A stretch of DNA of 38,650 bases. Origin: Thermoplasmatota archaeon (lineage in GTDB: Archaea > Thermoplasmatota > Penumbrarchaeia > Penumbrarchaeales > EX4484-36). Position 1 is the first letter of the stretch. Each line of letters opens with the position of its first letter. Made by a program: the position numbers. Shown piece by piece: positions 21,001-24,000 of this stretch. The stretch is from positions 1-38,650 of the forward strand of contig JAOZQA010000015.1 of NCBI GenBank assembly GCA_029932465.1, in the 5' to 3' direction.

Positions 21001-24000
21001 CATCGGCACCCAGGGTCCGAAGGGAGTGTCCGCCTTCAGGTTCATTATGGTTTTGCCACCGTAGTCCAGATCAGGATGGCCTGCGTCTATTCCGGTGTCT
21101 ACCACCACTACGGTTACCCCCTCCCCGTCTATCCCACTAGCTTCGAAGACGCCGGCACTCTTCTCCAACATCGAGTACCAGACGTCGGTAGCGTTTATGA
21201 CCCCCGTGGAGACCTCCAGGTCAAGTTCCACAGGGGAGTCCCACTCAATGTAAACCACCCCCGGGGATGCCTGAAGCCTTTTTAGATTCTCCCACCTCCC
21301 CTTAACAAGATAAGCGCTAGCTGCGGGGAAGGGACCCAAAACGGCAAAGCCTGCGTCTTCTATTCTCTCCTCCATAACCCTATCAATAGATGTGACGGAC
21401 ACGATAAACCTGTCCATCCCCCTGGCCCCATCCTCCAACATCTTCTCCACGGCGCTTGAGAGGTCCGCATAAAGAGAATTAACATCCTCGCTGAGTGTGG
21501 TTGGGTGGGGAAGGAGGATGAGAATCAGCAGAACGGAGAGAACAGCCATAGCCCGCATCCAATGAGGTTATGTAAAGGGGGGCTTAATATCTTTTGCCCT
21601 TCTTCAGGAAACACATTTATTAAGCGGAACAGATTATTTTAGTATAGGGATGGTAAGGGTTCAGTCATGGAAGGGAAGGAAAACAGAGGGAGGCTTATCT
21701 CCGCCTCCGAGATAGAGAAGTGGGCCTACTGCCCTCTTTCCTGGAAGCTCTCCCGGGAGTTCTCCACAGAAGATGAGAGCCTGAGGGCGGGTATTGAGCT
21801 CCACAGAAGGGTTGACGAGGACCTCAAAAGCTCCATAAAACTGAGGAGGAGGAGCTCGGAGGAGTACCTCTCTTTCTATGTAGGCGCCTCCACCTTCCTG
21901 CTTCTTTTCATCACAGGGATTGTACTGTTCATGCTGGTCAGGACGGGCCATGTGGAGAATCTGGTTCCAGCCTTCACAGCAGCATCCTCTGTCTTTTTGA
22001 TTCTCTCTCTTTTCACCCTGTTCAGAACATTTTTCAAGGGGGGTGAGATAAAGGAGCGCTTAAACCCCAGCGTCTCCATATCAGCCAATGCGGCGCTGTT
22101 TCTCACAGTGACCTTTGTCCTTGGCTATTGTGGTTACCTAAAGGGCCTCTTCATCACCCTCACGGGAGCCCTCATATGGTATCTAATGCTGATAGGGACG
22201 ATCCTGCTGCTCTCTTTGCTAAAGAAGAAGTTCCCCAGATTTCTCATTGCCATTATTAGAATATCCTCAATATCAATACCTGTGGTGGTGCTGCTGGCGT
22301 TCTTTGAATTCCATTTTCTATTAACTGCTTCGTATCTGGTGCTTTTATCTTTCCTTCTCTTCCTAGCATCCTCTGCGCTCCTCTGGCACGTCAGGGACTT
22401 GGGATACGGGGATAGGCCCCCTCTCGCACTCTCTCTGAAAACACCGGAGGGTGTCGCTGCTGTGTTCTTATCCTCCGCTGTGATATTCCTGGCACTTACG
22501 GGGTTTCTTAGCACGGAAGGAGGAATCACTATCTATCACAACTTTCTTCTGGACCTCTCCTTTGCATGGCTGATAATAGCGGGAGCGCTTGCTGCTGCTG
22601 GCGCCTATCACTCCATGTCCTCCCAGCGGCTCACCTCCTGGGTTGGCGGACGGGTTGTTGCCCAGAGCCTGGCATCTGGCCGGGGGCCTCTTCTCAAATC
22701 AACCACCCTGGGCATCTCCGGCAGACCGGATGCGATCGTTGTGGAGGGTGGAGCGAAGGTGCCTGTGGAGATAAAATACGGGAGGGTCCCCCGGGGGCCC
22801 TTTTTCTCCCACATAATGCAGCTTGCTGCCTATCTGTACGTGATGAGAGAGGGGGAGGGTAAGAAGCCCTCTTACGGATATATACGATACGTCCCCCGGG
22901 AGGGTGAGCCCAGGGATTTCCGGGTGGACTGGAGCGAAGAGCTTGAGGAACTCCTTAAGAAGTTCGTAGGGGAGATCAGGGAAGCAGAAGAGGGCTTAAG
23001 AGAGGTCCACAGGAACCACAGACGGAAAGGGAAGTGCCTCCACTGCTCGAGGAGGGAGAGCTGCCCCGAGAGGCTCTCCTGATCACTTCCCACGTCTCTG
23101 GTGGGCCCTTATGGAGGGACGTACCTTCTCCGCACCCTTTCCCTTCCATCTGAGGCCTCTAGCCTTCTTCCCGGCGGACGTTAGCCCCCTGAACACCCTC
23201 CTCTTATGCTGAGCTTCAATGATCCAGTTTATCTTTGAATCAGATTTGATGGCGGGATGGAACGGGTCCACCATGATGACCTCAAAGAACTTCTGTTTGC
23301 CGTCCTCCCCAACCCAGTAGGAGTTCAGAACTTCAAGATTGGGGTATCTTCTGGCCGCCCTCTCCTCCGCAATCCACTGAAGGCTCTTGCCCACCTTTAT
23401 CTTCTTGACGCCTCGCCTCTTGGCCCTCCTCCCCTTTCGGATAGCTCTTTTACGGAATGAGCCCTTGCGCACCTTCACCCTCACAACCACAAACCCCTGC
23501 TTTGCCCTATACCCTAAGCTCCTTGCCCTGTCAAGCCTTGTGGGCCTCTCAACCCTTGCTATGGAAGGTCCATGGCGCCACTCAATGAGCCTCTGACGCC
23601 AGATTTCCCTCATCTCACCCTCTTTGGGTCTCTTCCACTGCTCTGCTATGTATCGGTAGACCGATTTTGACATCGCACGTCCTCCTCCGGGATTCACCCA
23701 AATGGGCACATCCCCCGGGTGTAAGTGCCATGAGAAAACCATATTTTAACTTTTCTAGGGTTTCGCACCCCCTCCCCCGGGGCCGGTAGGGGGAAAGAAT
23801 TAAAATATCCCACATCACTCCTGCCCTCATGCTGGAGGACACAGAAATAGTAATAAGGCTTCTTCTGGCAGCCCTTATGGGTGGTATTATAGGCCTGGAG
23901 AGGGAAAGAAAGCGCTCCACCGCCGGGCTCAGAACGCACATGCTGGTCTCTCTGGGCTCCTCGCTACTCATGATACTGTCTATCCTTATACCGGAGAGGC

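What a model noticed while it worked through the whole genome (the two positions that open the first line are those of the whole stretch)
21667..23082. Membrane-embedded solo Cas4-like nuclease conserved across Thermoplasmatota
g00973 is a Cas4-family PD-(D/E)xK nuclease, far from any cas locus, in which about eight transmembrane helices are inserted between the first Fe-S cysteine and the nuclease core with the three C-terminal cysteines. It is a single-copy housekeeping-like gene in most Thermoplasmatota lineages, with 1-8 helices in the same place, i.e. a membrane-tethered nuclease.
Evidence so far: 36 of 37 class genomes and 84 of 121 phylum genomes, nearly always one copy, beside rpl15e/peptidase. 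In 20 of 20 loci read: N-terminal YCPLSW, hydrophobic helices, GxPD...PxExK; 19 of 20 end in CxxCSRRxxC; these residues invariant in a 30-sequence alignment. Model matches Cas4 structures 8d3l and SSO0001 best.
(Added by a program. Inside this text positions count along the whole contig: contig position 1 is position 1 of the stretch shown here. "Call 12" and the like, gene names such as g00115 and contig names such as C1 are that model's own, and its searches are not shown. The text may have been shortened before it was handed on; [...] marks where a part breaks off. The agent that wrote the report below was given it as the finding of a first reader that could run no searches.)

Follow-up and report, generated by a model that had tools for sequence, protein, structure and literature searches.

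The report
Membrane-embedded, sometimes split Cas4 nuclease
This archaeal gene encodes a Cas4-type nuclease whose chain is interrupted by eight predicted membrane helices, so the enzyme likely sits on the inner face of the cell membrane doing routine nucleic-acid upkeep rather than CRISPR work, and relatives carry two or four helices or are cut into two separately anchored genes.

Summary
Confirmed. Window 21667-23082(+) is a 471-aa Cas4-family PD-(D/E)xK protein; the genome has no cas1 hit. Eight predicted helices sit after the first Fe-S cysteine and the putative metal-binding His46, before Asp355/Glu368/Lys370 and three cysteines, so the active site itself is interrupted. It is found in 36 of 37 class genomes and about 279 of 401 phylum genomes, and is missing in some complete ones. 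Helix counts are 2, 4 or 8 in 162 of 170 full-length relatives. In relatives the insert is a repeated two-helix hairpin (not detectable in this protein itself), and positive charges put the nuclease in the cytoplasm. In other Thermoplasmatota, many Chloroflexota and a few plasmids the gene is split into two ORFs, each with one helix. Neighbours are lineage-specific housekeeping genes; rpl15e holds only in this class. Best reading: a membrane-tethered housekeeping DNA nuclease (0.5). Rival: a membrane RNase (0.27; TRAM fusions, TRAX and CDIN1-like neighbours). Activity and substrate are untested. No paper describing it turned up in nine searches. This scan has reported the family several times on other DNA.

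The parts
21667..23082 (+). Whole gene: 471-aa membrane-embedded Cas4-type PD-(D/E)xK nuclease
   Evidence: ORF; Pfam PF01930/PF12705; TIGR00372 62.1 bits, just under its cut-off of 65
21697..21804 (+). N-terminal nuclease part: ISASE..YCPLSW with Fe-S Cys22 (21730-21732), Gly42 and His46 (21802-21804), the likely equivalent of the metal ligand His62 of SSO0001
   Evidence: Invariant in alignments; profile aligns to the N-terminal part of 4r5q; SSO0001 ligands from PMC12501428 Discussion
21805..21879 (+). Predicted helical stalk from the nuclease head to the first membrane helix (basic, KLRRR)
   Evidence: Continuous helix 37-92 in the model; matching long helices 33-84 and 150-188 in the four-helix relative
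21880..22599 (+). Insert of eight predicted transmembrane helices (residues 72-311), four hairpins with short outer loops and K/R-rich inner loops
   Evidence: Hydropathy and charge counts; hairpin repeat shown in relatives; model pLDDT under 50 in parts of 132-217
22654..22833 (+). Nuclease core: G352-R-P-D355, P366-V-E368-I-K370, Q385-xxx-Y389
   Evidence: Invariant columns; core motifs plus QxxxY in 400 of 401 proteins matching the core pattern
23014..23064 (+). C-terminal N450-H451 and Fe-S cysteines C457, C460, C466
   Evidence: CxxC..C in 396 of 401 and a His just before it in 392 of 401 proteins
23083..23742 (-). rpl15e, convergent and abutting (ORF as called; the real start is probably the second Met near 23673). 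Context only
   Evidence: PF00827; neighbour in 16 of 22 class loci only
19279..21558 (-). Divergent S8 subtilase gene. Context only, not co-transcribed
   Evidence: PF00082; opposite strand

Best explanation
The gene encodes a Cas4-type nuclease interrupted by eight predicted membrane helices, which likely hold one intact, cytoplasm-facing catalytic head on a two-helix stalk under the membrane, where it would trim or clear single-stranded or branched DNA as a housekeeping enzyme independent of CRISPR. Shown: the motifs, their conservation, the position and even number of hydrophobic segments, the hairpin repeat in relatives, the split form, and no cas1 hit. Predicted: topology (N- and C-parts both inside), refolding of the two parts into one Cas4 domain, the Fe-S staple from Cys22 plus three C-terminal cysteines, and metal binding by His46/Asp355/Glu368. 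Inferred: the helices are an anchor rather than a channel (one hairpin, or one helix per half, suffices, and one relative has none), the substrate is DNA, and the role is repair or chromosome upkeep. I put the architecture at about 0.9 and the DNA-housekeeping role at about 0.5.
For: Catalytic and Fe-S residues invariant on both sides of the insert. Helix counts in 170 full-length proteins: 2 in 41, 4 in 89, 8 in 32, odd in 8; even numbers are what same-side N- and C-parts need. K/R per residue 0.227 on the nuclease side against 0.083 opposite, higher on the nuclease side in 156 of 162. Split C-halves have more K/R after the helix than before it in 42 of 43; N-halves average more before it. 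Model of four-helix relative P0017 (mean pLDDT 85.8) aligns from residue 1 to 330 on Cas4 7mi4_A, Z 18.5, rmsd 2.9 over 180 residues, and 8d3l_I, Z 18.1. Hairpin 1 against hairpin 2: hhalign 98.4%, score 65, shuffles at most 16.7. Purifying selection in relatives: dN/dS 0.12-0.21 for the core (6 of 10 pairs computable) and 0.08-0.29 for the insert (7 of 10). Families mostly group together in the tree. DNA-side context: smc-scpA directly upstream in 8 of 8 f41 loci; ssb in 27, recN in 14 of 80 Chloroflexota loci; plasmid copies beside a helicase, or near umuDC and a DNA methyltransferase. The characterised Cas4 and solo-Cas4 enzymes discussed in PMC12501428 cut DNA.
Against: No activity, localisation or expression data. 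Helices are hydropathy estimates and the insert of this protein's model is low-confidence. The hairpin HMM finds no repeat in this protein or in 3 of 3 tested proteins of its sister family; by profile comparison only hairpins 3 and 4 of that family match, hairpin 1 is marginal and hairpin 2 does not. RNA-side clues are about as frequent as DNA-side ones: TRAM fusion in 4 of 4 f3 genomes, TRAX in 58 of 80 Chloroflexota loci, TPD/CDIN1-like in 13 of 69, hfq on the Bacillus plasmid. No neighbour is shared across lineages, so gene order may be hitch-hiking. One relative (L055, G021) has no helix at all, and the gene was not found in near-complete genomes such as G058, so neither anchor nor gene is indispensable.
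Confidence: 0.5

Rival explanations
1. Same membrane-tethered enzyme, but an RNA (or RNA-DNA hybrid) nuclease serving RNA turnover or ribosome quality control at the membrane, working like bacterial membrane-bound RNase Y or RNase E (analogy recalled, not tested).
For: C-terminal TRAM domains, over the Pfam cut-off, on the protein in 4 of 4 f3 genomes of 3 genera, where only 3-4 proteins per genome carry TRAM; TRAM is described as an RNA-chaperone domain (PMC10746257 passage). TRAX/C3PO homologue (AfTrax 3zc1, E 1e-20) on the same strand in 58 of 80 Chloroflexota loci. TPD/CDIN1-like gene next door in 13 of 69 loci; human CDIN1 is reported as an RNA nuclease (PMC13463051 title). RLI and an aRF1-like gene flank f21 loci, hfq follows the Bacillus plasmid pair, rpl15e and tRNA synthetases flank others.
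Against: The TRAM fusion is one event in one family. TRAX is in only 5 of 30 more broadly drawn Chloroflexota loci (1.5 kb flanks). In G000 the TRAX, TPD and scpA homologues lie on other contigs. Closest folds are DNA nucleases.
Confidence: 0.27
2. A stand-alone defence or gatekeeper nuclease that destroys or processes phage, plasmid or environmental DNA as it crosses the membrane.
For: The membrane position suits entry sites (inference). Solo-Cas4 has been proposed for defence, and Argonaute-linked Cas4 proteins interfere with plasmids (PMC5704561 and PMC12501428 passages). Patchy loss in some families and carriage on 6 plasmids.
Against: 0 of 58 neighbour proteins hit PADLOC. Among 109 further neighbours scanned with Pfam, none gave a cas, restriction or DNA-uptake-channel family; one had a HEPN domain and one a prepilin peptidase. 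Single copy, fixed housekeeping positions and strong purifying selection do not look like an arms-race gene.
Confidence: 0.13
3. The helices form a pore or sensor (alone when eight, or by oligomerising when two) and the nuclease is gated by it or feeds nucleic acid through it.
For: The 1-2-4 hairpin duplication resembles fusion of an oligomeric unit; SSO0001 and M. mazei solo-Cas4 are oligomers (PMC12501428); the insert is under purifying selection.
Against: No invariant polar residue in the helices across forms, only a Trp and small or hydrophobic residues; outer loops have a median of 8 residues; the insert diverges freely between orders; a helix-less relative exists.
Confidence: 0.1

Closest known systems
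CRISPR-associated Cas4 (PF01930, TIGR00372; solved 7MI4, 8D3L)
   Same: Best structural matches (Z 18.5 and 18.1); RecB-like motifs, QxxxY and a four-cysteine staple with one cysteine N-terminal and three C-terminal.
   Different: No cas1 hit in the genome and none beside the family loci read; 240-residue membrane insert inside the domain; split and hairpin-repeat forms.
Archaeal solo-Cas4 enzymes: SSO0001 (4IC1), Pcal_0546 (4R5Q), Methanosarcina mazei Solo-Cas4 (PMC12501428)
   Same: Outside cas loci, Fe-S and Mn/Mg nuclease fold, His-Asp-Glu metal site; best sequence hits in the PDB.
   Different: Those are soluble; M. mazei's lacks the RecB motif, which is intact here; none is described with membrane helices in the passages read.
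Solo-Cas4 branches of Hudaiberdiev et al. 2017 (PMC5704561)
   Same: Notes a monophyletic solo-Cas4 in many Chloroflexi and counts solo genes in Aciduliprofundum, Anaerolinea and Caldilinea, so members of this family were probably counted there (inference).
   Different: 'Transmembrane' and 'membrane' do not occur for Cas4 in its text or 7 supplements; the small N-half gene is unannotated (atlas clusters are 'hypothetical protein').
Membrane-bound bacterial RNases (RNase Y, RNase E) and PIN-TRAM membrane proteins (recalled, not tested)
   Same: A cytoplasmic nuclease held at the inner membrane face; TRAM tail in family f3.
   Different: Unrelated catalytic folds and terminal anchors; here the anchor is inside a PD-(D/E)xK Fe-S domain. 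Work-alike only.

Membership tests
Cas4-family nuclease (PF01930 / COG1468-like) | Profile score over the curated Pfam cut-off | tested here: met
   PF01930 38.3 bits against 22.7; PF12705 43.8 against 22
Cas4-family nuclease (PF01930 / COG1468-like) | RecB-like motifs D...ExK and QxxxY | tested here: met
   D355, E368, K370, Q385, Y389 invariant or nearly so
Cas4-family nuclease (PF01930 / COG1468-like) | Four cysteines, one N-terminal and three C-terminal | tested here: met
   C22, C457, C460, C466; cluster binding itself not tested
Cas4-family nuclease (PF01930 / COG1468-like) | Cas4 fold formed by N- and C-terminal parts | tested here: met
   Predicted model of relative P0017 spans 7mi4_A 6-201 at Z 18.5, rmsd 2.9, 180 aligned; query model's best Foldseek hits are 4ic1 and 8d3l
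Cas4-family nuclease (PF01930 / COG1468-like) | Metal-dependent nuclease activity and bound Fe-S cluster | not testable with these tools
   Needs purified protein
CRISPR-associated Cas4 (CAS-Cas4, TIGR00372) | Score over the TIGR00372 cut-off of 65 bits | tested here: inconclusive
   Query 62.1 (under); 5 of 7 relatives tested are over
CRISPR-associated Cas4 (CAS-Cas4, TIGR00372) | Encoded beside cas1/cas2 | tested here: not met
   No cas1 match in G000, 94.6% complete; none among 13 window neighbours or family-locus neighbours scanned
Solo-Cas4 (Hudaiberdiev 2017) | cas4-like gene outside cas loci and mobile elements | tested here: met
   Chromosomal housekeeping context; no phage record hit, 2 weak viral-contig hits, 6 plasmid records
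Solo-Cas4 (Hudaiberdiev 2017) | Mainly vertical inheritance | tested here: inconclusive
   Families mostly group in a quick tree of the core, but 47 of 101 inner branches are unsupported and the careful search did not finish
Known anti-phage defence system (PADLOC) | Partner defence genes in the locus | tested here: not met
   0 of 58 neighbour proteins hit; the query hits Cas4 models only among those shown

The most novel reading that the evidence does not exclude
A widespread, undescribed class of membrane nucleases in archaea and bacteria built on the Cas4 fold, whose active site and Fe-S staple are assembled from two membrane-anchored pieces (separate genes in many lineages, re-fused and then expanded by hairpin duplication in most Thermoplasmatota), acting on RNA at the inner membrane face with TRAM domains or TRAX as substrate adaptors: an archaeal counterpart of the bacterial membrane RNA degradosome, switchable by assembly of its halves.
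Probability: 0.22. Interest if true: 0.88.

Novelty: new variant of a known kind. Interest (0 to 1): 0.68.

Why it matters
About 90% of archaeal genomes encode Cas4 and the job of solo-Cas4 is open (PMC5704561). This subfamily shows that a large share of 'solo Cas4' in Thermoplasmatota and Chloroflexota is likely a membrane enzyme, often mis-annotated as CRISPR-associated and with its small first half unannotated. An anchor inside a catalytic domain, a natural two-piece active site and a 2-4-8 helix series give direct handles: the halves can be expressed alone and together, a natural helix-less version exists, and a copy on a Bacillus subtilis plasmid offers easy genetics. Finding its substrate would reveal a membrane-localised step of DNA or RNA metabolism in abundant, mostly uncultured archaea.

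Tried and rejected
CRISPR adaptation role: rejected, no cas1 hit. Artefact or chance fusion: rejected, 338 homologues of 259-825 aa with the best 120 sharing the layout and a 9-member cluster for this protein. Operon with rpl15e or the peptidase: rejected, convergent and divergent respectively and class-limited. Homodimer prediction of a two-helix member: no verdict, not used as evidence. Sequencing runs: no RNA holder listed. Known fold for the helical insert: only generic helix-hairpin matches, inconclusive. Order of events: in the quick tree the 50 fused Thermoplasmatota rows form one side of a branch (SH-aLRT 86, not starred) with split forms around them and 5 other fused rows scattered; the root rests on two long CRISPR Cas4 rows and constrained tests did not finish, so 'split first, then re-fused' is only a lead. 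Missed-detection check for genomes without a hit: 19 of 20 still had no match with the C-half profile, the other E 0.006 in a 1015-aa frame. Search for shorter relatives with the query's C-part gave only 3 proteins; the split forms came. Phage records: no match; viral contigs: 2 weak hits, neither with an N-half. Literature searches without a description of this family; the library lacks most subscription journals and bioRxiv supplements were closed, so a remark in arCOG-type annotation tables cannot be excluded.

Full report
Observation. The ORF at window 21667-23082(+) encodes 471 residues. It scores over the Pfam cut-offs for Cas_Cas4 and PDDEXK_1 and just under TIGR00372 (62.1 against 65). 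It is the only PF01930 match in G000, and cas1 was not found in this 94.6%-complete assembly. GC is 53.5% against 51.0% for the window. The neighbours are a divergent subtilase and a convergent, abutting rpl15e, so it shares no operon with either.

Anatomy. Alignments of 22, 29 and 76 homologues fix Cys22, Gly42 and His46 before the insert and Asp355, Lys370, Gln385, Tyr389, His451, Cys457, Cys460 and Cys466 after it, with Glu368 nearly invariant. The profile aligns the N-part to the N-terminal motif of Pcal_0546 (4r5q). SSO0001 binds Mn2+ with His62, Asp99 and Glu113 (PMC12501428 Discussion), so His46 is likely the metal ligand (inference). The insert therefore interrupts the active site and the Fe-S staple, and both parts must lie on the same side of the membrane.

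Topology. Of 170 full-length proteins with both motifs, 41 have 2, 89 have 4 and 32 have 8 predicted helices; 8 gave odd counts (Kyte-Doolittle estimates). Lengths cluster near 277, 325 and 500 residues. K/R density is 0.227 on the nuclease side and 0.083 on the far side, higher on the nuclease side in 156 of 162. In this protein the outer loops hold 1, 1, 0 and 0 basic residues and the inner segments 4, 4, 4, 3 and 1. By the positive-inside rule (established knowledge) the head is cytoplasmic. The model of this protein has mean pLDDT 75 with a weak stretch at 132-217. The four-helix relative P0017 folds at 85.8 and aligns end to end on Cas4 7mi4_A (Z 18.5, rmsd 2.9, 180 residues) and 8d3l_I (Z 18.1), above AdnA, MGME1, Exo5 and Dna2. 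Two long helices link the head to the membrane part.

Hairpin repeat. In 20 four-helix proteins hairpin 1 matches hairpin 2 at 98.4% (score 65; reversed 13; 60 class-preserving shuffles mean 10.5, maximum 16.7). Seven eight-helix proteins of 516-645 residues show three or four copies each. Against this, the same HMMs find no copy in this protein, in P0003, or in three proteins of its sister family. For that family, profile comparison recovers hairpins 3 and 4 (scores 25-30, shuffles at most 18), hairpin 1 marginally and hairpin 2 not at all. The repeat origin of this protein's own insert is thus inferred from relatives.

Distribution. 36 of 37 class genomes match. In the phylum 283 of 401 sampled genomes match, 279 at E<=1e-15 (unpublished G396 is one of those counted). 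Three of the four weaker hits were read: two are CRISPR cas4 genes and one another nuclease. Some families mostly lack it (f11 3/48, f14 11/38), and 19 of 20 negative genomes stayed negative with a second profile, including single-contig G058. dN/dS in relatives is 0.12-0.21 (core, 6 of 10 pairs computable) and 0.08-0.29 (insert, 7 of 10); the rest were saturated.

Split form. In 19 loci from 18 genomes of families f21, f41 and f26 the gene is two adjacent ORFs: an 80-105-residue piece with the cysteine, the G-x3-H motif and a C-terminal helix, and a 170-200-residue piece with the core, in most with an N-terminal helix. The break falls in the outer loop. The 50%-identity library holds many such C-halves. 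In Chloroflexota 71 of 80 loci have the N-half upstream on the same strand, all 71 with the cysteine, the His motif and a helix; of the 9 without, 3 end at the contig edge. In a phylum-wide sample 69 of 201 genomes match at E<=1e-15 (unpublished G443 among them) and 59 at E<=1e-30; 28 of the best 30 loci have the N-half within 1.5 kb, none fused. A Methanothrix protein is a C-half. Two plasmid loci read carry the full pair, among 6 plasmid records hit. One relative has no helix (L055). That a gene cut in two keeps one anchor on each half is the strongest sign that membrane attachment is selected.

Context. No neighbour is shared across lineages. Counts by tblastn: rpl15e 16 of 22 class loci and 0 of 69 others; TPD/CDIN1-like 13 of 69; scpA 8 of 69, always in smc-scpA-N-C; RLI 5 of 69; in 80 Chloroflexota loci TRAX 58, ssb 27, nadK 20, recN 14. 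TRAX falls to 5 of 30 in the broader sample. None of 58 neighbours hit PADLOC. Four of four f3 genomes fuse TRAM to the C-terminus. The clues split between DNA upkeep and RNA handling.

Mechanism. Most likely a tethered, cytoplasm-facing Fe-S nuclease that trims or clears DNA ends or branches as a non-essential housekeeping enzyme (0.5). Rivals: membrane RNase (0.27), entry-site defence (0.13), pore or sensor (0.1). DNA is favoured because the characterised relatives cut DNA and the closest folds are DNases; nothing here tests it.

Literature. PMC5704561: passages and a search of 7 supplements; it notes Chloroflexi solo-Cas4 and counts solo genes in Aciduliprofundum, Anaerolinea and Caldilinea but has no mention of membrane helices. 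PMC12501428: abstract and Discussion. PMC13621843, PMC12669027, PMC10354927, PMC10746257: passages only, none on this family. PMC13463051: listing, plus a term search with no hits. Nine searches found no description; subscription journals and bioRxiv supplements were not visible. RNase Y, RNase E and PIN-TRAM comparisons are recalled. Family labels f1-f49 are the tool's codes.

Earlier scan notes. Agents reported this family, including eight-helix, split, hairpin, CDIN1-neighbour and TRAM forms, on other genomes. I saw the split form and the TRAM tails before reading those notes; they are not independent support.

Verdict. Real, conserved and apparently undescribed architecture of a known nuclease family: new variant of a known kind, interest 0.68.

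Noticed in passing
L055:4745-5362(-) (G021, family f25): A 205-aa member with the N-part joined straight to the core and no hydrophobic helix; it groups near the split f21 forms in the tree. A natural soluble version.
   Followed up: partly
L036:4579-6705(-), L038:4929-6887(+), L039:4464-6647(-), G139:C74 (family f3): Eight-helix members with one or two C-terminal TRAM domains.
   Followed up: yes
L036, L038, L039 (f3) and L018 (f22): 4 of 64 complete fused genes have no in-frame ATG/GTG/TTG before the first cysteine motif, only ATC/ATT/ATA/CTG codons: likely non-standard starts; a called form (P0183) lacks the N-part.
   Followed up: partly
L175:5676-6414(+), plasmid CP120602.1; L176:4651-5432(+), plasmid NZ_CP019084.1: Split, doubly anchored pair on three ~64 kb Bacillus subtilis plasmids (between a helicase gene and hfq in the one read) and on planctomycete plasmids (beside umuDC, a DNA methyltransferase and a MobF relaxase in the one read).
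   Followed up: partly
L060-L067 (family f41): Conserved same-strand run smc, scpA, N-half, C-half, tRNA synthetase (class I, Trp/Tyr), often facing fen1 and a Rad51-like gene; this ScpA is missed or only weakly hit by Pfam but hits solved ScpA 6ivh (E 8e-6).
   Followed up: yes
L097, L098, L112, L134, L140, L150, L154, L165: A YkuD L,D-transpeptidase gene sits between the two halves in 8 Chloroflexota loci; 11 of 71 loci have a 600-1000 base gap between the halves.
   Followed up: no
L092-L171 (Anaerolineae and kin): Recurrent run ssb, DUF3467, TRAX/C3PO homologue (annotated by NCBIfam as a haloacid dehalogenase), N-half, C-half; elsewhere the pair precedes nadK, a B-box zinc-finger membrane protein and recN.
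   Followed up: partly
L072 and L073 (G198): Two divergent split pairs in one genome, an exception to single copy.
   Followed up: no
window 25126-27153(+) and 18528-19223(-): A 675-aa protein with a ~430-residue charged coiled coil fused to a KaiC-like ATPase, and a second stand-alone KaiC-like ATPase beside a response regulator-DUF835 gene (17000-17923).
   Followed up: no
window 27154-27852(+) and 28400-29806(-): HTH-NUDIX fusion; M48 peptidase with a long insert and a C-terminal zinc ribbon.
   Followed up: no
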